NCBI RefSeq assembly: GCF_009914755.1
Contig: NC_060941.1
DNA length: 64,000 bases
From: the human T2T-CHM13v2.0 reference genome, Homo sapiens
Reading direction: 5' to 3' (one strand)
Each line of letters opens with the position of its first letter. Position 1 is the first letter of the stretch. The position numbers and the translations under genes are program-made. A model generated the notes under the pieces. That model did not search any database and was not told the DNA's origin. It saw only the letters and a program-made list of their open reading frames with translations. Shown piece after piece: positions 6,340 through 61,066 of the stretch.

Positions 6340-6603
6340 AGAGTGGGGCTTTAAAGGCTCAGATTCTGCACTTAGACAGGCCTGAGCTGCAGTCCTGGCT
6401 CTGCCATTTTCCAGCTGTGTGTCCTCAGACTCCTCACTTAAGCGCCCTGTGCCTCAGTCTTCTCATCTGTAAAATGGGATTCGTGTGAGAATTAAATGAC
6501 TTAATACATGTGAAGCTCATTGAACGCTTACACTAGTAAGTGCTCAATAAATACTAGCTGGCATTGTTGTTCTATCACCATCATCATCATCATCATCATC
6601 ATC
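6340..6603. mobile_element. MIR followed by (CAT)n repeat
   Basis: MIR core ctgtgcctcagtcttctcatctgtaaaatggg; catcatcat at ~6579-6603. Confidence 0.8.
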
Positions 6604-13341: not shown

Positions 13342-16300
13342 CCTTTCTGTACCTGTCCAAAGGAGCATCCTACCCAGCTGTCTCCCACTGCCCTAGGCAA
13401 GGAGAGCCGGGCAGGACAGCAGAGATGCCTCCTGCCCAGGAATCTTCTCAGGGGGCTGCCACAGGAGGAGCCCTGGCTTCAGGATGGGCAACAGGAGACC
13501 AGGGTTTGAGGCCCAGTGACTCAGTGCGTGAGCTTAGACAAGTCCCCACACTCCTCTGGGCCTCTGCTTTCCATCTGTAAAAGGACGGGGTGGGAGAGGA
13601 TTCATCTTCTCCACAATCTATTTCTGGAACGTCTGCTCTGTGTCAAGGGTCAGGTGTGTTTTATGGAATTAAACTGTCCCTCCCTTAGAGGGTTTCCAGT
13701 CCAGAACCTCTGAAGGTCCTCTAGCACCAGAGCTCAAGGGACTGTGATTATTTGAAAATCAAGCTGGACAGAGGCACCACTGAGCAGATGGAGCTGTGGA
13801 GCCAAGCAAGGAATCAGAGTATCTTCCATCACACAAAAAGTAAAGGCCAGAAGAGGGTGCCACTTTCCCAGTGAGGTTTAGGGGGGCTTCAACTCCCGGC
13901 TCTCTCCGGCCCCACTGCCCACCATGCCCTCACCTTTACTGCCAAATGGGCTGGGCTGGTTGTCTGCAGAGGAGGCCTGTGAAATATAAAAGTGATCCCA
14001 CGGTGGGGGAGTGGCTTATCAGCCTCTACCAGGCAAGGCAAGGTGGTGAGAAGGTGGCATCCTGGCCTGGGAGGGTTTATATCTGGCCTGTACCACCCAC
14101 TGCCCCAGGACCTTAACCAAGTTCCCTGCTGGCTCTTGCTCAGTCTTCTCCATGGGTAAGACAGATAATGAGAGCACTGTCAGGAGGGTTTGTGGTTGTT
14201 GCAGAAAAAGGAAAGTTTACAGATGAGAAGCCCAAGGCTCAGAGAGGTTGAGCCACTGCCCACAGCTACCCACTTAATAAGTGGCAGTGCTGAGATTTGA
14301 ACCCAGGCCTCTTGGAAGTCAAGCCTGTAGGCTCCTTCTGTTCAGTGTAGCTCAAGAAAAAGGCGGAGTTGATTAGAGGCCTTAGGTGTGTCCTGGAACT
14401 CAAGGATGGGCCTCACAGTCTGATTTCATGAGAACCCGGAATCTGGAGTTAAAGAGAGGCAGGACCCACAGCTCTTGCAGCCTCTCTAACACCAGGGCCA
14501 GCAGACCTAGTTTCCTCTGCAGGCCTCAGGCCATAAGAGCCCCAGGCAGCCTGATGGACCTTAAAAATAGACGAGCACTTCCTAAAAGGAAGCGTCTGAT
14601 GGGGCTGGCTACGTTGGGTGTTCACCTTTGGCCAAGCAGCTGGAACCAGGTGATGTGCCTACAAGGACCACTCCTAGGGTAGAGGGGTCAGTTCTTGGAG
14701 AAAGAGCAGGGACTGTGGGGAGCAAACAGGCCAGTGGGCAAGTGGGACAGATGGCCTATGAGTTGGCTGAGTAATTTTCTAAAGCACTGTCTTCAGTCCT
14801 GCACGCCAGCAACTGGAAAGAGGCTGATGTGTTAGGACATTTCCGAAAGATGGTGGCCAATAATAACTCCCACCACTTTGGAAGCATCTAGCTTGTACTT
14901 GACATGTATTGCACTATTTAATGGAATCCCCTGCCATAATCTTGGTTGAGGGTATTATGATTCCCATTTTACAGATGAGGAAACTGAGGTTCAGTAGCTT
15001 GCCTACAATCCCATGGTTGATAAGCGGCAAAGCCAGGATTTGAACCTAGGCCCTTCTGATGCTAATGGGGGCAAGCTTTCACTGTGCCACTCTGAAGTCC
15101 AGCACCTAAAGAAGTAAAGGCACCAAACAAAGGAGGGGAAAAGCTTGGAAGGCAAAGTGGGACAGGACATTTCAAGAGCTACAGTTTGGACGGAAGTTGC
15201 TCATGCTTCAGTGACCCTTGTTGCTTTTGGTTTTTATTTTCTGGTTATTGAAGTAATTTCTGTTTCTGGCAGAATGTTTGGGAAATGAGACCTATCTCCG
15301 TAATCCCGGAGAGTAAATCTGAATTTGTAGAAAATGACCTTACCAGGAGGTAGATGTGGTGCAGTCTTGGGCAAACTTCTGCTCACATAGGGTTGGCTGA
15401 TGGGGAGTTTCCCATCTTCCCCTGTGTTTAAACCCAGGCTACCTGAATCACATTGGAGCAAGGATGCTGCAGGGGGGTGGTCCTGTTCCAGGAGTTGGGA
15501 CTTCCATGAGCCGTTCGTGGGTGGAGACAGCCTGCTCCCAACTCAAAGGCAGCTGGCATAGTAGTGAAGGTCAGGTAGAGGGTGCTGCTCCTATCTGGAA
15601 AGAAGCCAGCTGTCAGCCTGGTCCTGGGTGGGGGGAGGCAGGAACCACTGGAATAAGCCAGTGTTGCAATTGCTCTCACACTGGGTGCTCTCGAGCAAAA
15701 GAGTACAAGCTGCTCCTGGAATTTGTCTCTGTGCAGTTTGGCATGGGGGACGCAGCTGGGAAGAAAGAGGCCCTTGACTCGGGGGGAGAGAGCCTGGGCT
15801 GGGGGGGTTGTCCATACTCTCTGGGGTCTGGAGTGATGAACCAGACAGCAGATCTGTGCTGTCCCTTCCAGAGCCAGATGCTTGCAAGAGCATGGGTCAC
15901 CGGTGTTCTCTGATAGGAGGTAGCAGGATGATAGAGTAATGCTAGGAGCTAATACTCGTTGGGTGCTTATCACTGTCAAAGTCTTTATAAGCATCCTGTT
16001 GTCTAATCCTTATGAGGTACACCTTATCATCATGTGTGTTTTCAGATCAGGCATCCAGCTCTGCTGTAAGCATTAGCTTGGGAATTCAAACCTGTGCTAT
16101 TAATCACTAGTCCTGGGCCCCTGACATATGCACTGTGCAGTGGACAAAGGGAATGTGGGATTTGGAGCTCAACTGTTCCATGTGGCCTTAGGTAAGTCAT
16201 TTTACCTCTTTGAGCCTCAGCTTCCTCAATTCTAAAATGAGAAGGAGAGCAGCTACTATATAAGGTTGACATGATGATAAAATTATAAAGGAGAAGACAG

Positions 16301-18752: not shown

Positions 18753-19116
18753 CAATTTTCCTGAAAACCTTTCGAAGTGTGGTTACCCATGTTTTACAGA
18801 TACACACGTGGAGGCACTGAGCAGTGAAGCAAACTTGTCAAAAGCTACACACCTGCTTGGTGGCAGAGCCAGAGTTTGTGCTCAGGGACTGTGCACACTT
18901 AGCTACCAACCTGTTCACTTCATGGCTCTTGTGAGGCTGAGAAGTCAGAGGCTTGAGGCTTGAAGGAGCTCCATTCTGTTCTTGGCTCCTGTCTGTGTAC
19001 CTGGCACCCTCTGTCTCCCAGAGTGTCCCTTGGACTTCTGTACCTGGACACAACTTGCCCTCTAGAGGCCCCACTCATGGGCAGTAAGTGTTGGTGTGCC
19101 AGAAAGCAACAGCTTC

Positions 19117-19477: not shown

Positions 19478-19707
19478 CCTTCCCCCTAGGGTGATATATC
19501 CAGACACCCCTCACCCACCTTCCCCCAGTCATGGCCCTAGGAGACAGGAGACTTCCTATGTAAATCTCACTTGGTCTCAAAATAGGTATCTCTTCCCAGG
19601 TGGGTGGCCCTCCCTTGCACCTCTTCATTGCAGAGGTGAAGATGACTGGGCCAACCTCACCTTGCTCTGCAGAAGGAGCATACCAGGTGCTCTGAGGCCA
19701 GCAGATG

Positions 19708-19728
19708 CACAGCACCAAGGCCAGCTCC
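19708..19728 (+). promoter_or_regulatory. RE1/NRSE-like REST site
   Basis: cacagcaccaaggccagctcc versus TTCAGCACCNNGGACAGCNCC with canonical 2-nt spacer. Confidence 0.4.
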
Positions 19729-20620
19729 CTCCTTCCAGGGCACAAGGCATGTCTCTGATGGAGCCCAGACTCTTGGCCGGGGTAGGCTGTGAGTGATGGG
19801 GTCAGGTGGGCCCCCACTGGCTTCCCAAAAAGAGTGTTGTTTCCTGGAGAAGGGTGGGATTTGCTCTGTGCATGGAAAATGTCTTTCTCACCCTTCATGT
19901 CGGGACAACCTCGTTGCTCCCACCCACCTTCAACTCCAGCTCCACCTGAGACTGCCGGTAGCAGGGGTCTTGATCTTTTTTCTGAATCTGAACCTGACAG
20001 CCCAGCCCTCCGTGACTGGTTGCTGCCCACTCTGAATCCTTCCTGAGGGACGTTGCTCCATTTCTGGGTATCCCTGTATTCTCCCCTCATTCCAATCCCA
20101 CAGGAAACTTCCAGAAGTTCCAAATACCAAGGAAGCATTCCCAGGTGAGAAGATGGAGGGCTCCATAGGTGACTGAAGTTTCAGGGACAGCACACCGTTG
20201 AATGTCACCCCATCAGATGGGGGCTGCAGGGCCAAGGCCAGAACCCGGCTTAATCAGCAGTGGGGACAGTCCCAGGTATGGGCTGGGCCCTGCACACGGT
20301 CACCTCATATTCCCTACCACATCCCTGAAACAACACTGGGACTATCCTCACTGAGGACAAACCTCTACAGATTCAGACTAAAGTGTTACTGGCTGATGGG
20401 ACCATTTGCACCACTTGGATTTCTGCTCAGTTTTGAAGGCGTTTGAGTCCGAGTTGGGTAGGAGAATTTTACCTTGGCAGGGGAGACGAATTTGAGGTCC
20501 TGGTAGTGGCCCTGCTCCCCTCCTTGGACCTTCTCCCCCAGCCCCTACCCCAGCTGGTGACCCAAGTTCAGACCCTGCTGAGCAGACCCCAGCGCTGGAT
20601 GCAAGGAGAAGCCAGGACGT

Positions 20621-21627
20621 CTGACCTTGACCTTGGGATTAACAGTGTTTTACCCAGTGCTTTCCTATGGGGCTGTGACCTCCTTGGCTCCTTCGAGTAA
20701 GCCTAGGAAGATGGCATTATGGGTGACACAGACGCTGAGAGGGGTGTCCTCCCCAGGAAGGCCAGGGCAGGACCTGAACTTTGTGCTTTCTGGAGTGCAA
20801 TCAGATGAATAGGCTGCCGCCGTGTGCATTGATTGAGTGCTTGTTGTCAGCCCTAGAGCCGGGAGGCCATGGCTGCCCATTAAGGGAGTACCGCGGGGTT
20901 CACCCAGCTTCAAGATCAATTCATGTCAAAACTGCAGCCAACATTTTCCCCATCTGCCTCTGCGGAGGGAAATAAACCAGGGGAGGCAGAATACAGAGAC
21001 ATCATTCCCGGTGATCAATTTCCTCCACCCCTTCTTCCCTCCGGATGGGAACGGCCGTCTCCATCCTGATGGATGCATTGTTGTGGGGAGGGTGAGGAAC
21101 ACTCATCCTCTGAGGCACCCGGGGTTGGGGGCAGGGGTGGGGGGAGCCGCACTGGGACGGGAGGGGCAGAGGAGGAGGAGGCCAGCAGGCCCGATGGAGC
21201 CAGCCCAGGAAGGCAGGGCAGGAACGCAGAAGGCAGCAGTGTTCCCACCCCGGGAGGGCAGATCCAGCAGTGGGGTGGTGGCCAGGAGCCCCTCACTCAG
21301 GGTGCCCAACCCTGAACCTTGGGATTACACTTCCTGGCTGAGTGGCCTTGGGCTGTGTTCTGGGATCTGCCTGGGGAATGCACCCTACCTCTGCAGGCTG
21401 AATGGCTGAACACAGGTGGGGGACCACATCCCAGAAGGCACAAAGTTCAGGTCCTGCCCTAGCCTCCCTGGGCAGGACACCCCTCTCAGCCTTCGTGTTC
21501 TCACAGGTGAGACGGATCACGCCACCCACAATGTCATCTTCCTAGGCTTGATGGAAGGAGCCACGGAGGTCACAACCCCATAGGAAAGCATTGGGTAAAA
21601 CACTGTGAATCCCAGGGTCAAGGTCAG
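20621..21627. repeat. Non-Alu inverted repeat (arms 20621-20793 and 21431-21627)
   Basis: Hand alignment: 96/107 plus 56/60 identical, one net 24-nt indel, 637-nt spacer. Confidence 0.95.
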
Positions 21628-23706
21628 GCAATGGAGGCGCACACACCTCTGTGACGTATCCTTTCTCCCTCTTGCCTGATGATTCTGCCGTTGCCTTTCC
21701 AAGCTCCTGGGTGTGTGATCTTTTTGCGGTCAAGTGGTGAAAAGATACAGTTTAGATCACTGTGAAGGTCTAGAAATTAAATAATTAAGGAAGAAGAATT
21801 AAAATCCCCTGGTGCTTCAGGAGGTGGGTCCCGGTACAACTGCCAGTCAATCCAGCCTGGAGCCAAGTTCAGCAGATCACCAAGGGGTCAGGAGAGGTGA
21901 GAAAGCCCCTGCAGCCAGGCTGCCCCTTGGCTCTCAAAAGCAGGCTGCAAGTGTACTCCACCCCAGCCTGTCTTCCTGCCCTGCATTCTGCAACCCTTCT
22001 GTGTCTTCCCTTGAAAGACTTCTCCCCATCCCTGCTCTTTTGGCCTCAGACTGAAATGGACTGGGGGAGGGGGTCTGAGACCCCATTAATGGCCTGTTGA
22101 GCTCCCTGTGACTTGGGCATTTGCAGACAGAGGTCAGTTGTCCATTAAACGATGGAACTGAGCACTCCACTTAGCAGTGTATATGGGACACAGTTAAATA
22201 ATGAAACAAAAATAGAACATTGCAAAAGCCTGGGGCAGGCTGGCTTGTGCCCCAGGAAGAAGCAGAGAAAGCCATCCCAGGGAGAGGGGAGGAAATTCAC
22301 TGTTGGCCTCCCTCTTCCATGAAATGCTCTGGTTTAAAGTATATTTTTTTTTTACATATAGGTTATCTTTTATTGATTTTTAAAATTAAAGTTCACATAT
22401 ATATATACATACACAAATACATATACACACACACACACACACACAATGCAGTTGGAAAAATAATTTGTGCTCATTGCAGCACACTGGGAAATGCAGAAGA
22501 ATAGAAAGAGGCAGGTTTTCCTCCTCTCCTCCATCCATAATGTGGGGTTGGGGGTGTTAGAGCTTTCCAATACCACCCCTAGGAAAGGGAGGGGGATGAA
22601 AAATATGTACTGAATTTGAGAGTTCTAGTTTTGGCAACAGAGTACCAACTGTCAGCACTTCAGAAGGTTTTAAAATACATCATTGACTTATAAGAGAGAA
22701 GGAAATCCCCAGGGAACTGAAACTCAAAGCCTTGAGCATGTGAACTAATACTAAGGAGAACCAGGGGGTACTGGATCCAGATATGTGCCATCATAGCTCA
22801 AGTCTGGAATTTTAATGCCCACCCATGGACTGTAAAACGTGGTCTTGGGCCCCCGCAAGGCCAGAAGTTCGCACTGAGACTCCCCCTCCATGAAGGGGAG
22901 GCTAAAATTTGCCAACTACCAGCCCAAAAAATTGCCAGGACATTTAGATCTGCCCAGATTCTCTAGGAAGGTGGAGGAGGGTCTCCTCCAAAAAAAACAA
23001 AGACCGAAGAATGAGCTGCCCACAGGTACAGAATCTAAGTTTCTAACGCCCCCCAGGGGGAGAAATCCTGAGCTAAGAATTTAATGTAAAATCAGATCCT
23101 GGATTGATGGAACTTCTAGCTCACCCAGCTGAATCAAATCCAAAACCACTTTCCAGAGACTCTTCCAGGACCCAGAGTACATAGGATTCCCATGGGGATG
23201 GTTGAGGGGAAGCCTTGCTGAAGATGAGCTCACAATAAAAATTACAGACCACATGAGAGCATGGTTTAACCTTGAGGCAACTTAGTACAGACAGCAAATG
23301 GGGAAATTAGCATTTCAAAAACATGGTTGTAGAACAGTGTGGAAAAGTCTATAAAATAAATCCAATGTGTTTAAAACAACAAGGAGGAGTAGAAACCATA
23401 TTAAAATAACAGAGCAGATTTCTAATCAGCAACAATGAAATAAAGATGAACAACAAAATCTAGAGCTTGTTGTTTGTAAGAGCTGAATAAAATTGCCCAA
23501 ACTGAGGAAATACCGGAAAGGGAAAAAGAGAGAGAAAACACAAACAATATTGGGAACGAGAAAAAGACCAAAATGATATGTGGGATAATCATTATTTAAC
23601 ACCTAAGAGAATATCATGAAAGAGTTTATGCAAATATGGGTGACTTTCTGGGAAGTCACTCAAAAAGAAATAGAAAACCTAAATAGATTGTAGCCATTAA
23701 CACAAT

Positions 23707-26271: not shown

Positions 26272-26568
<297 letters not shown>

Positions 26569-28146: not shown

Positions 28147-28665
<519 letters not shown>

Positions 28666-37344: not shown

Positions 37345-37730
<386 letters not shown>

Positions 37731-40718: not shown

Positions 40719-41189
<471 letters not shown>

Positions 41190-41591
41190 TGATTGCAGCA
41201 TTGTACTGAGATGGCATGAGGTAGCCCAGACTTACTTGATAAGTCTTTCATAAGTCTTCACAATAACTCTTATGAAGTTATCCCTGTTTTACAGATGAAG
41301 AGACTGAGGTTCAGAGTGGCCATGTGACTGGCCCAGGATGGTACATGGGAGAGCCAGCATTACATCCCAGATTTGCCTACTTCCGTGTGCCATTCACTCC
41401 CCCATGTAGCTGTAAACTCCAGGGACTAAACTATGACCCTCAAGCCCTCTGTCACTGTCACGTTCTGGACAAGGCCATGCCTGGAATTTATATCACATCT
41501 AGGTAGTGAGAAGGAGCTAAGTAAGTGAATAAAGAAGTTATTTTGGTAACTTCTGTTGTGTATCAAATTATCTTGAAACGTAATGGTATAA

Positions 41592-42915
<1,324 letters not shown>

Positions 42916-43477: not shown

Positions 43478-43680
43478 GTTTCTACTAAAAATACAAAAAA
43501 ATTAGCCGGGCGTGGTGGCAGGCACCTGTAGTCCCAGCTACTCAGGAGGCTGAGGCAGGAGAATGGCGTGCACCTGGGAGGCGGAGCTTGCAGTGAGCCA
43601 AGATCGCACCACGGCATTCCAGCCTGGGTGACAGAGCGAGACTCCATCTCAAAAAGAAACAAACAAACAAACAAAAAACT
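43478..43680 (+). mobile_element. 5'-truncated AluY
   Basis: Starts at linker tctactaaaaatacaaaaaa; gcggagcttgcagtgag diagnostic. Confidence 0.9.
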
Positions 43681-46113
43681 CAAGAAGGCTGCCTGCTTCT
43701 GGAACCCAGCCCTCAAAAGATGACACTACATGTTGCCATCTCCAGCCCAGGAGTTTAGCTGGAGCCCTGCACTTTTGTATACAAGGAGAGTGATTGGAGA
43801 ATAGATCACTCTAATCTTTAATTTAGTTTTCTTCTCTGATTCTGGAAACAATACATGTTCTTTGAGAAGCTTTGTTGAGCACAGAGAAGTATTTTAAAAA
43901 CCATGCATAACCTAATTACCTGGAAGCAGCCATCATCAACATTTTGGGTTATTTCTTTCCAGTCTGTGAATTTTGTATACGGTTGAGTTTAAGTTAAAAG
44001 TGTGATGTTGCATTCAACTTCATTAATTTACTATTATAGTGTAAACATTTTATCTTGTGATAGCAACTTATAAAAAATGGCTCCTCTCCTATAAGAAAAA
44101 TCAAATGAACATGAGATTCATGGGATAGAGAAGGAACCATGTAAAAGCAGAAGCTCGAACAAGGGTCTAAGAATACAGTTCAGACTAGGGTGTCTTCAAG
44201 GGCCTTCCTGTCCCTACTGAAGACACTGGGTGAGAGAATATGTACACACATGCACAACTACGTAGAAAAAAAGACTAAAAGGCAATGAACTAAGATATTA
44301 ATGATGATGGTGTTCTAAGAGTGGGAAAGTGCAGGTAATTTTCATTTTCTGTGTTATATAATTTTCTGCGCAATACAGAAGGAAAAAGCACTGGGTCAGG
44401 ATCTAAACTATTGCTGGTGCACACTTTTATCTTTTCAAGTAACTGTTTGGGTTATCCCAGGCACTTCTCCCCTCTGGATCTTGATTTCCTGTGTGTGCTT
44501 TGAGGAAAGTATTAGTCCTGCCACCCCACTAGGTGGGTTTCAGAAGTAGAAATCCTGGGTCAGAGTGCACCTCCAAGAAGCTACCAGAAGATATGACTGG
44601 ATGACTCCCAACAATATGCCCTATAGTATCAAACGAGAAGCCTTTATGTGACACTTGGCCACTTCTAAAGAAACATTTCTGAATACTGTGTCTCGTACAT
44701 TTCTAGATAGCCTGAGTGACCTACTTTGGATTATTTTCCTTCTTCCCAACACTCTTTGAGCCCATATTTCTTCAGTAGCGAGATGATGTAGTCCAAGCAT
44801 AGACTTTGGAGTTAGACCTGGGTTTAAAGCCAGCCTACGGCTCACCTGTGCTTTCCTGTAGGCTACTCCACATCTCTAACCCTGAGTTTCTCCATCCACA
44901 AAGTGGGGCTGATCCCACCTACTCACAGGGTTATCGTGAGGTCCTGATGAAACCCTGTACCTGAAGGATTTTGCACAGTGCCTGGGAGCTAACCCTACTC
45001 AGTCAATAATATGATTTATTTATAAATAAATAGGATTACATAATAGAAGCATAGATATAATTTTGTAATGAATAAGATTGCTATTTTCCACCCCAGGTAG
45101 CATTCCATAAATGTATTACATACTCTGGAAATAGATGAAACTTTTTGGTTTTCCTAGGTATATTCCAGGCTTTAGGATCTGCTATTGTAGAGTTTGGCAG
45201 GCAAGGTCACTTTCAGCCTCTTTTATTTCTCGCTTTTGTAGATTAAGATCCAATCTCCTCTCCACTTTCATCTTTCCAAATCTCCAAACATGAATCTTTT
45301 TCATCTCCCTGCCAAGCTTAACATTAAGATTGGCTGCTCAGCTTCGACCAGGCAACAGCAGTCGTGCTTCAGAAGCTCTGATCCATTCTCTCTGCAAGAC
45401 TCAGGGGCTTAGTCCACTGTTGCTTAATAACAATACCTTATACCAGGATCATGCTTTAGACTTTTTTCAAAGCATAGTCATATCTGCTGTCGTGTTTAAT
45501 CACACCAGCAATTTTGTGGAGTGAGCAAGGCAGGTCTTCCTATTCTTCCTGGCAGGCAGTGTGGTTCCCAAAGTGGGTTTCACAGAACATGATGTCTTTT
45601 TTTTTTCTTTGCTCAAATAAGTTTGGAAAATACAGAAATAAGCAAAGCTAAGCAGGCTTTTCAAAGCCTTTACCATAATGTGCAATGCGGTTCTTCAAGA
45701 GCTAGGTGCAGTGCTTCTCACAAGCTGTTTTTTTTTTTTTTCCTTTTAACCAGAGTCACTTTTTCTAGAATATTCCATGGAATTATTGCTCCATGGACCC
45801 CACTTTGGATAAACTCATGGGGTGGGAGTTTGAGAACGCAAGCCTTGAAAAAGGGCTTGGGAGTGGGGCAAGGTAAGGTTCAAATGCAGGCACCAACATT
45901 TGCCAGCTGAGTGCTCTTGTGCAAGCTTCTTAACCTCACTGATCCTCAGTTTGCTCACCTGTAAAATGGGTGTGGTAATAGAATAGCCAGGATTAAAATG
46001 GGGAGTAAGGTGCTTAACAGGATGCCTAACAATGATAAACGTTCAATGTACTTTGGTGTTTATTATTAGTCTCTTCCTCCATGTTATCCAGGAGAAAATC
46101 AGTCTTCAGAGAG

Positions 46114-49117: not shown

Positions 49118-57020
<7,903 letters not shown>

Positions 57021-59963: not shown

Positions 59964-61066
<1,103 letters not shown>

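What the first reader, a model, noticed from the sequence alone, without database searches (positions are those of the whole stretch)
20621..21627. Unique-sequence inverted repeat enclosing a 637-nt enhancer-like cassette in intron 1
Seen: 20621-20727 is the reverse complement of 21521-21627 (96/107), and 20734-20793 of 21431-21490 (56/60), about 91% overall. It resembles no Alu, L1 or MER I recognise and has no TSD. Both outer ends carry RGGTCAAGGTCA (nuclear-receptor DR0 / ERR-SF1 TCAAGGTCA) pointing outward. The spacer keeps CpGs and has TGATTGA and two GATCAAT motifs. Inference: in pre-mRNA it forms a ~170-bp duplex (ADAR substrate, loop-out); in DNA it could let the spacer invert by intrachromatid recombination.
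Basis: partly seen in the sequence, partly recalled or inferred. Interest (0 to 1): 0.8.

Follow-up and report, generated by a model that had tools for sequence, protein, structure and literature searches.

The report
Single-copy inverted duplication in CACNG5 intron
A stretch of about 180 bases in the first intron of the human CACNG5 gene is present twice in opposite orientation 637 bases apart, most likely an old local copying accident that lets the intron RNA fold into a long hairpin, an ordinary kind of feature with no sign of a special function.

Summary
Window 20621-20793 (173 nt) is the reverse complement of 21431-21627 (197 nt): 156 of 173 aligned bases match, with one 24-nt indel and a 637-nt spacer. 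In the whole T2T genome each arm finds only itself and its partner, and the spacer finds only itself. There is no target-site duplication, no Rfam match inside the element and no Pfam match.

The arms differ as neutral old DNA would. K2P is 0.106, with 11 transitions and 6 transversions. No CpG is shared, mismatches are evenly spread, and the longest identical run is 23 nt. Neither RNA strand is favoured.

My best reading is one local inverted duplication, by replication template switch, fold-back or staggered-break inversion, tens of millions of years old. The sense pre-mRNA is predicted to form a duplex of about 162 bp (z -17.5; -311 kcal/mol). Its dimensions resemble published "edited non-repetitive dsRNAs" (PMC11838218), so ADAR editing is plausible but untested.

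The enhancer, nuclear-receptor and spacer-inversion ideas have no support. No primate orthologues, Dfam, editing or pangenome data were available. Interest is low.

The parts
20621..20793 (.). Left arm of the inverted duplication (173 nt)
   Evidence: reverse complement of 21431-21627 with 156 of 173 aligned bases identical. It lacks 24 nt that the right arm has. Its only genome-wide matches are itself and the right arm.
20794..21430 (.). Spacer, 637 nt, which forms the loop of the predicted RNA hairpin
   Evidence: Single-copy in the genome: 1 candidate found, itself. GC 0.603 and CpG observed/expected 0.28. No Rfam match. Of the 18 stop-free frames of 50 aa or more, 6 were scanned against Pfam and 0 families were found.
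21431..21627 (.). Right arm of the inverted duplication (197 nt)
   Evidence: Its only genome-wide matches are itself and the left arm (E 1.6e-45).
21499..21522 (.). 24-nt segment present only in the right arm (an insertion there or a deletion in the left arm; direction undecided)
   Evidence: It is the gap in the alignments, and the sequence was printed. It contains a short internal palindrome that folds as a 5-bp side hairpin.
20622..20633 (-). AGGTCAAGGTCA at the outer end of the left arm (tandem AGGTCA half-sites including TCAAGGTCA)
   Evidence: motif positions. It is the mirror image of the right-arm copy, so it counts as one occurrence duplicated.
21615..21626 (+). GGGTCAAGGTCA at the outer end of the right arm
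   Evidence: motif positions. It differs from the left copy by the transition at 20633/21615.

Best explanation
This is the product of one local rearrangement that copied about 175-200 bp of unique intronic DNA in reverse orientation about 0.64 kb away. Possible routes are a replication template switch, a fold-back synthesis event, or a small inversion made by staggered breaks that duplicates one breakpoint. It lies in intron 1 of CACNG5.

Since then the two copies have drifted apart neutrally to about 90% identity. With recalled primate substitution rates of 1.1-2.2e-9 per site per year, that suggests roughly 25-50 million years. This date is an inference.

Its only predictable molecular effect is on RNA. 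When CACNG5 is transcribed, the two arms should pair into a hairpin of about 162 bp closing a 637-nt loop inside the 42-kb intron. Such a hairpin is a likely substrate for ADAR editing and is discarded with the intron. I see no evidence that it regulates anything.

Shown: the structure, its single-copy status, the neutral-looking divergence and the predicted fold. Inferred: the mechanism of origin, the age and the editing.
For: 1. Two arms end at coincident boundaries at 90.2% identity with one indel.
2. Each arm matches only itself and its partner in the 3.1-Gb genome, and the spacer matches only itself. The outer 24-mer with up to 3 mismatches occurs 3 times genome-wide: itself, the partner arm and one 3-mismatch hit on C20. 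The reversed control pattern gives 1 hit.
3. There is no TSD for the whole element or for either arm.
4. The divergence looks neutral.
   - There are 11 transitions and 6 transversions, K2P 0.106.
   - 0 of 4 alignable CpGs are kept in both arms.
   - Mismatches are evenly spread. The longest identical run is 23 nt, the simulated mean is 30, and P(23 or more) is 0.86.
   - By my count from the list, 6 of 11 transitions leave a G-U pair in sense RNA and 5 of 11 do so in antisense RNA.
   - Duplex energies are alike on the two strands, -310.7 and -312.6 kcal/mol.
5. The hairpin dominates the predicted fold (z -17.5).
6. Its dimensions are 162 pairs, a 31-bp contiguous run, -311 kcal/mol and a 637-nt loop. 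These sit at or above the medians of the 4,597 'edited non-repetitive dsRNAs' in Andrews and Bass (144 bp, 30, -184.8, 509 nt). They are far from the unedited class (75 bp, 14, -44.6, 1407 nt). Source: Table 1 of PMC11838218, passages seen.
7. Template switching is described as generating nearby inverted repeats in great-ape genomes (PMC7954356, passages seen).
Against: No outgroup genome was available. The absence of one arm in older lineages, which arm is the copy, and the ancestral orientation of the spacer are therefore all untested.

No microhomology is visible at the junctions. The bases just outside the arms do not extend the repeat (sequence, alignment ends).

The short-range template switches described in PMC7954356 involve templates within tens to hundreds of nucleotides. 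A 173-197-nt copy placed 637 nt away is at or beyond the large end of that range.

The genome search is word-based, so it would miss copies below roughly 80% identity. An ancient mid-copy repeat family as the ancestor of the arm sequence is therefore not excluded. That would not change the conclusion that the two arms arose from one event.

Editing is only predicted.
Confidence: 0.65

Rival explanations
1. It is the relic of a non-autonomous DNA transposon (MITE-like, 1007 bp) whose 173-197-bp terminal inverted repeats are the arms, inserted once into the intron.
For: The overall architecture, two terminal inverted repeats around a non-coding core, fits. The arm divergence of about 10% would fit the last period of DNA-transposon activity in primates; that date is recalled and comes from no call.
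Against: There is no TSD. The only candidate is a 4-nt match at shifted ends, which 157 of 500 random site pairs equal. No other copy of arm, spacer or terminal 24-mer exists in the genome, whereas a family active that recently should leave copies about 90% alike that this search would find. No transposase-like frame was found: 0 Pfam families for the 6 frames scanned out of 18. GC content does not change sharply at the left boundary.
Confidence: 0.08
2. It is an older inverted repeat kept similar by selection or gene conversion because it works. Possible roles are a structured RNA (a hairpin for editing-dependent regulation or small RNAs) or a palindromic regulatory cassette bounded by outward-facing nuclear-receptor half-sites.
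For: The duplex is very stable. Spacer GC is 0.60 against 0.476 for the window. TCAAGGTCA occurs 3 times in 64 kb, where about 0.5 is expected from 9-mer frequency by my arithmetic, and two of the three are here. Chen et al. 2017 (PMC5398296, abstract seen) argue that some expressed, stable inverted duplicates are functional.
Against: There is no strand bias in wobble-preserving changes (6 against 5 of 11) or in duplex energy. Six transversions break pairs. No identity tract is longer than expected by chance. There is no Rfam family inside the element and no RefSeq functional element at this place (hub table). CpG observed/expected is 0.28. The two motif copies count as one mirrored occurrence. 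No paper in the library holds CACNG5 together with 'inverted repeat', 'dsRNA' or a relevant 'RNA editing' context.
Confidence: 0.12
3. The arms are two independent insertions, in opposite orientation, of one interspersed repeat family, like an inverted Alu pair.
For: The same intron holds many such pairs. There are 29 inverted pairs with arms of 60 nt or more within 4 kb in the window. Of the 25 listed, 2 are this repeat and the rest lie at 26-29 kb, 37-44 kb, 52-56 kb and 60-61 kb, mostly in blocks the hub lists as masked. A two-arm profile also gives one weak hit (E 0.037) to a copy of an abundant SINE-like family at 14941-15058.
Against: The arms are single-copy genome-wide. A 169-position profile built from 17 window copies of that SINE-like family gives no hit in either arm. 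Its only hit is at E 4.3 in the spacer at 21327-21353. Independent insertions would not share both boundaries.
Confidence: 0.02

Closest known systems
Non-repetitive intramolecular dsRNA-forming inverted repeats in human introns (the dsRNAscan class of Andrews and Bass, PMC11838218)
   Same: Both have two complementary arms within 10 kb on one transcript, in an intron of a protein-coding gene. This one has 162 pairs with 324 of 370 arm nucleotides paired (87.6%, my arithmetic), a 31-bp contiguous run and a 637-nt loop. The medians of the edited non-repetitive class are close: 144 bp, 87.5% paired, 30 bp and 509 nt.
   Different: 'Non-repetitive' is shown here only as single-copy in the genome, not by repeat annotation.
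Inverted Alu pairs (IRAlus), the main ADAR substrates in human pre-mRNA
   Same: Both are intronic inverted pairs with similar arm length, identity and spacing. Neighbours in the same intron include 26272-26499 / 28400-28627 (228 nt, 88%) and 40864-41053 / 43489-43678 (190 nt, 84%).
   Different: The arms here belong to no multi-copy family. The pair therefore arose by one duplication rather than by two retrotransposon insertions.
Template-switch mutations and inverted duplicates (Walker, Loytynoja and Goldman, PMC7954356; Chen et al., PMC5398296)
   Same: A nearby sequence is re-copied as its reverse complement, creating a hairpin-capable inverted repeat. The locus falls inside Chen et al.'s definition of arms of 10-10,000 nt with a spacer of 0-1,000 nt.
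   Different: The described short-range events use templates within tens to hundreds of nucleotides. This copy is long (173-197 nt) and distant (637 nt). The ancestral state is unknown, so the four switch points cannot be placed.
MITE-like non-autonomous DNA transposons
   Same: Both have terminal inverted repeats around a short non-coding core.
   Different: This locus has no TSD, no other copies and unusually long repeats.

Membership tests
Inverted duplicate / non-repetitive intramolecular dsRNA (PMC5398296, PMC11838218) | Two reverse-complementary arms of 10-10,000 nt with a spacer of 0-1,000 nt (Chen et al. definition) | tested here: met
   Arms of 173 and 197 nt with a 637-nt spacer.
Inverted duplicate / non-repetitive intramolecular dsRNA (PMC5398296, PMC11838218) | At least 25 bp and at least 70% of bases paired (dsRNAscan filters) | tested here: met
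   RNAduplex gives 162 pairs at -310.7 kcal/mol, and 324 of 370 arm nucleotides are paired.
Inverted duplicate / non-repetitive intramolecular dsRNA (PMC5398296, PMC11838218) | Arms do not intersect annotated repeats | tested here: inconclusive
   The arms are single-copy in the genome and are not hit by the window's SINE-like family profile. No RepeatMasker or Dfam annotation was available.
Edited dsRNA (ADAR substrate) | A-to-I sites on both arms in RNA-seq | not testable with these tools
   No editing database or RNA-seq was on hand. The 4 papers that hold CACNG5 and 'RNA editing' have titles and abstract openings unrelated to this locus (search listing only).
DNA transposon / MITE | Target-site duplication flanking the terminal inverted repeats | tested here: not met
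   The only candidate is CAGG, 4 nt at offsets -4/-3. 157 of 500 random site pairs give as good a candidate.
DNA transposon / MITE | Other copies of the family in the genome | tested here: not met
   Arm, spacer and terminal 24-mer searches find only this locus, plus one chance-level 3-mismatch hit. Copies below about 80% identity would be missed.
Inverted pair of interspersed repeats (IRAlu-type) | Each arm is a member of a multi-copy family | tested here: not met
   The 17-copy SINE-like profile gives no hit in the arms.
Template-switch mutation (four-point model) | The descendant carries a reverse-complement copy of nearby sequence that the ancestor lacks | not testable with these tools
   The reverse-complement copy is present, but no outgroup genome is held; the genome 'has no relatives here'.
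CpG island / annotated enhancer | CpG observed/expected about 0.6 or more (criterion recalled), or a curated functional-element record | tested here: not met
   Spacer CpG observed/expected is 0.28 and GC 0.60. The hub's RefSeq table lists enhancers only at 809-2621 and a silencer at 50414-50624.
Known structured RNA (Rfam 15) | Match to a covariance model | tested here: not met
   In 19500-22700 there are 2 matches at E up to 1. Both lie outside the element and far below the gathering score.

The most novel reading that the evidence does not exclude
The hairpin is a primate-specific functional RNA element. It would be an intronic, heavily edited or Dicer-processed dsRNA that tunes CACNG5 pre-mRNA processing or yields small RNAs in brain. 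Alternatively, the outward-facing ERR/SF-1-type sites make the 1-kb palindrome a hormone-receptor-bound cassette. Nothing here excludes these readings, because no expression, editing, chromatin or comparative data could be consulted. Every internal test looked neutral.
Probability: 0.05. Interest if true: 0.5.

Novelty: new member of a known kind. Interest (0 to 1): 0.17.

Why it matters
It matters little on its own. It is a clean example of a long hairpin-forming inverted repeat made from unique sequence rather than from Alu elements. If outgroup genomes are aligned, it becomes a dated case of a large local inverted duplication. That bears on how new dsRNA structures, and possibly new hairpin RNA genes, arise.

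For CACNG5 it adds one more predicted dsRNA to an intron that already holds several inverted Alu-like pairs. Genome-wide catalogues already count thousands of edited and hundreds of thousands of unedited non-repetitive dsRNA-forming pairs (PMC11838218), so a specialist would not be surprised.

Tried and rejected
2. A sequence-only model of the two arms was built (R1), but this genome cannot be searched with a model. A profile-level genome-wide search was therefore not done.
3. A pattern given as a window reference was not accepted. The 24-mer was then typed.
I could not check whether their catalogue lists this locus or editing on it.
5. I tested the idea that the arms derive from the abundant SINE-like family in the window. 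I recognise that family as MIR-like from recall only.
   - A two-arm profile gave a weak hit (E 0.037) to one copy at 14941-15058.
   - A profile of 17 window copies gave nothing in the arms.
   - I rejected the idea as unsupported.
6. I looked for a third, partial arm copy in the spacer. 21203-21223 matches the left arm at 20 of 21 bases, and 1 of 300 mononucleotide shuffles scores as well, but four comparisons were made. It was not reported by blastn at E up to 1. I treat it as G/A-rich low-complexity resemblance.
7. I looked for hidden coding sequence or a transposase. There are 18 stop-free frames of 50 aa or more. I scanned 6 of them (81-190 aa, those lying mainly inside the element) against Pfam and found 0 families. 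The other 12 were not scanned.
8. I looked for a compositional boundary that would mark an insertion. GC is already 0.53-0.60 for about 1 kb upstream, so there is no sharp left edge.
9. Literature searches:
   - CACNG5 with 'RNA editing' found 4 papers; judging by titles and abstract openings in the listing, none concerns this locus.
   - CACNG5 with 'inverted repeat' found 0 papers.
   - CACNG5 with 'dsRNA' found 0 papers.

Full report
**Observation**

- The repeat finder gives two gapless arm pairs: 20621-20725 / 21523-21627 (105 nt, 90%) and 20726-20793 / 21431-21498 (68 nt, 90%).
- A local alignment joins them into one alignment, with a single 24-nt gap opposite 21499-21522.
- Of 173 aligned positions, 156 are identical.
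- The spacer is 637 nt.
- The arm-to-arm match has E 1.4e-45 in a search of the whole 3.1-Gb assembly.

**Copy number**

Both arms and the spacer are single-copy at the sensitivity available.
- The left arm finds 2 places in the genome, itself and the right arm; 2 candidates were found and 2 scored.
- The right arm finds the same two places.
- The spacer finds only itself.
- The outermost 24 bases of the left arm, allowing up to 3 mismatches, occur 3 times. These are itself, the right arm with 2 mismatches, and one 3-mismatch hit on another chromosome. The reversed control pattern gives 1 hit.
- Within the 64-kb window, blastn with 7-base words finds nothing else at E up to 1. The only extra hit is a 38-nt internal palindrome at 21036-21073.

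The genome search is word-based and would miss copies below roughly 80% identity. A profile-level genome search was not possible.

**What it is not**

- It is not a transposon by the usual marks. The whole element and each arm alone lack a target-site duplication. The only candidate is a 4-nt match at shifted ends, which 157 of 500 random site pairs equal.
- There is no sign of coding sequence. Of the 18 stop-free frames of 50 aa or more that overlap it, I scanned 6 and found 0 Pfam families.
- It is not a pair of interspersed repeats.
  - A two-arm profile gave one marginal hit (E 0.037) to 14941-15058. I recognise that sequence, from recall only, as a MIR-like SINE.
  - I collected that family from the window with the element masked. 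It had 9 hits including the seed at first, and 17 copies after five rounds.
  - I scored the element with the resulting 169-position profile. There was no hit in either arm, and one hit at E 4.3 in the spacer at 21327-21353.
- It is not a known RNA family. Rfam gives 2 sub-threshold miRNA-like hits in 19500-22700, both outside the element.
- It is not a CpG island. Spacer CpG observed/expected is 0.28, against 0.21 for the window.
- GC is raised, 0.60 in the spacer with a 0.70 peak at 21100-21299. It is already 0.53-0.60 for about 1 kb upstream, so nothing marks the left arm as an insertion boundary.

**How the arms have diverged**

Nothing in the divergence points to gene conversion, or to selection for pairing on the transcribed strand.
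- There are 17 mismatches, 11 transitions and 6 transversions. The p-distance is 0.098 and K2P is 0.106. Thirteen mismatches lie outside CpG contexts.
- None of the 4 alignable CpGs is kept in both arms.
- Mismatches are evenly spread. The longest identical run is 23 nt. Random placement of 17 mismatches gives a mean longest run of 30, and a run of 23 or more in 86% of trials.
- From the list I counted that 6 of 11 transitions leave a G-U pair in sense RNA, and 5 of 11 do so in antisense RNA.
- Duplex energies are -310.7 kcal/mol for the sense strand and -312.6 for the antisense strand.

**Most likely origin**

Two arms share both boundaries, are 90% alike and have no other relative in the genome. 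They must therefore come from one event.

I favour a local inverted duplication, with confidence 0.65. It could have arisen by:
- a replication template switch or fold-back synthesis, a process described as generating nearby inverted repeats in great-ape genomes (PMC7954356, passages seen);
- a small inversion formed by staggered breaks that duplicates one breakpoint.

With recalled long-term primate rates of 1.1-2.2e-9 substitutions per site per year, K2P 0.106 between the arms corresponds to roughly 25-50 million years. This is an inference and assumes no gene conversion.

Three things remain open, because no non-human genome is held here:
- which arm is the copy;
- whether the 24 nt were inserted in one arm or deleted from the other;
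- whether the spacer is inverted relative to the ancestor.

**What it does**

CACNG5 is on the + strand, and the element lies in intron 1 (7073-49014 by the hub table).

The 999-nt sense RNA folds with the two arms paired end to end. The minimum free energy is -589 kcal/mol, against -418 +/- 9.8 for 20 shuffles, giving z -17.5. The arms alone give 162 pairs, a 31-bp contiguous run and -310.7 kcal/mol.

Andrews and Bass (PMC11838218) report median values for 4,597 edited non-repetitive dsRNAs: 144 bp, 30 contiguous bp, -184.8 kcal/mol, 87.5% paired and a 509-nt loop. For 492,832 unedited ones the medians are 75 bp, 14 bp, -44.6 kcal/mol, 75.2% and 1,407 nt. I read their sections 5, 9 and 10 and passages including Table 1.

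This hairpin looks like the edited class. I therefore expect ADAR editing wherever the gene is transcribed, and removal of the hairpin with the intron. That is a prediction and was not observed.

The same intron holds several inverted Alu-like pairs of equal or greater length, for example 26272-26499 / 28400-28627 (228 nt, 88%). This hairpin is thus one dsRNA among several.

- The two RGGTCAAGGTCA motifs are confirmed, but they are one motif mirrored by the duplication. A third TCAAGGTCA lies at 2888 on the - strand.
- TGATTGA occurs 11 times and GATCAAT 12 times on both strands of the window. They were chosen after the fact.
- RefSeq lists no functional element here (hub table).
- Recombination between arms whose longest identity is 23 nt should be very rare. 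The length threshold for efficient recombination is recalled and comes from no call.
- Distance and divergence between inverted repeats lower their instability under normal conditions (abstract of PMC10164571).

**Comparison and novelty**

The locus meets the published definitions of an inverted duplicate (PMC5398296; abstract and sections 6 and 12 read) and of a predicted intramolecular dsRNA (PMC11838218).

The human genome is reported to hold 4.3 million inverted duplicates of all sizes and about half a million predicted non-repetitive dsRNAs. This one is longer and better paired than most of them, but it is a new member of a known kind.

No paper in the library holds CACNG5 with 'inverted repeat' (0 papers) or with 'dsRNA' (0 papers). 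Four papers hold CACNG5 with 'RNA editing', and none concerns this locus judging by titles and abstract openings in the listing. Supplementary catalogues that may list the locus could not be opened.

**Verdict**

Noticed in passing
window 14918-15093 and 16 other places (e.g. 6344-6496, 41247-41409, 44779-44952, 45876-46008, 18754-18886): An abundant dispersed repeat family has 17 copies in the 64-kb window, recovered by iterated nhmmer from one seed. I recognise it from recall as MIR-like SINEs; no tool named it.
   Followed up: partly
window 21121-21144 (+): A canonical G-quadruplex motif of four runs of 4-6 G lies on the sense strand inside the spacer, at the 0.70 GC peak.
   Followed up: no
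window 21203-21223: This stretch matches the inner part of the left arm (20751-20772) at 20 of 21 bases, in direct orientation. 1 of 300 shuffles scores as well, but four comparisons were made. It is probably low-complexity resemblance. A similar G/A-rich motif recurs at 21968-21988 (I4).
   Followed up: partly
window 21504-21512 (+): The 24-nt segment found only in the right arm contains CAGGTGAGA, which reads like a consensus 5' splice site on the sense strand (sequence; the consensus is recalled). No exon is annotated here.
   Followed up: no
window 21036-21073: A small internal palindrome in the spacer: 38 nt, 79% self-complementary, E 0.004 within the window.
   Followed up: no
window 20837-21409 (+): A 190-codon stop-free frame spans most of the spacer and has no Pfam match. 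It is probably a by-product of the high GC content.
   Followed up: partly
window 26272-26499 / 28400-28627, 40864-41053 / 43489-43678, 37600-37730 / 41592-41722, 60164-60293 / 60792-60921: Several inverted pairs of 130-228 nt at 84-93% complementarity lie within 4 kb of each other, mostly in blocks the hub lists as masked (Alu-sized). They are further predicted dsRNA in CACNG5 intron 1 and the 3' region.
   Followed up: no
window 2888 (-): This is the only other TCAAGGTCA in the window. It lies about 270 nt beyond the RefSeq enhancer record that ends at 2621.
   Followed up: no
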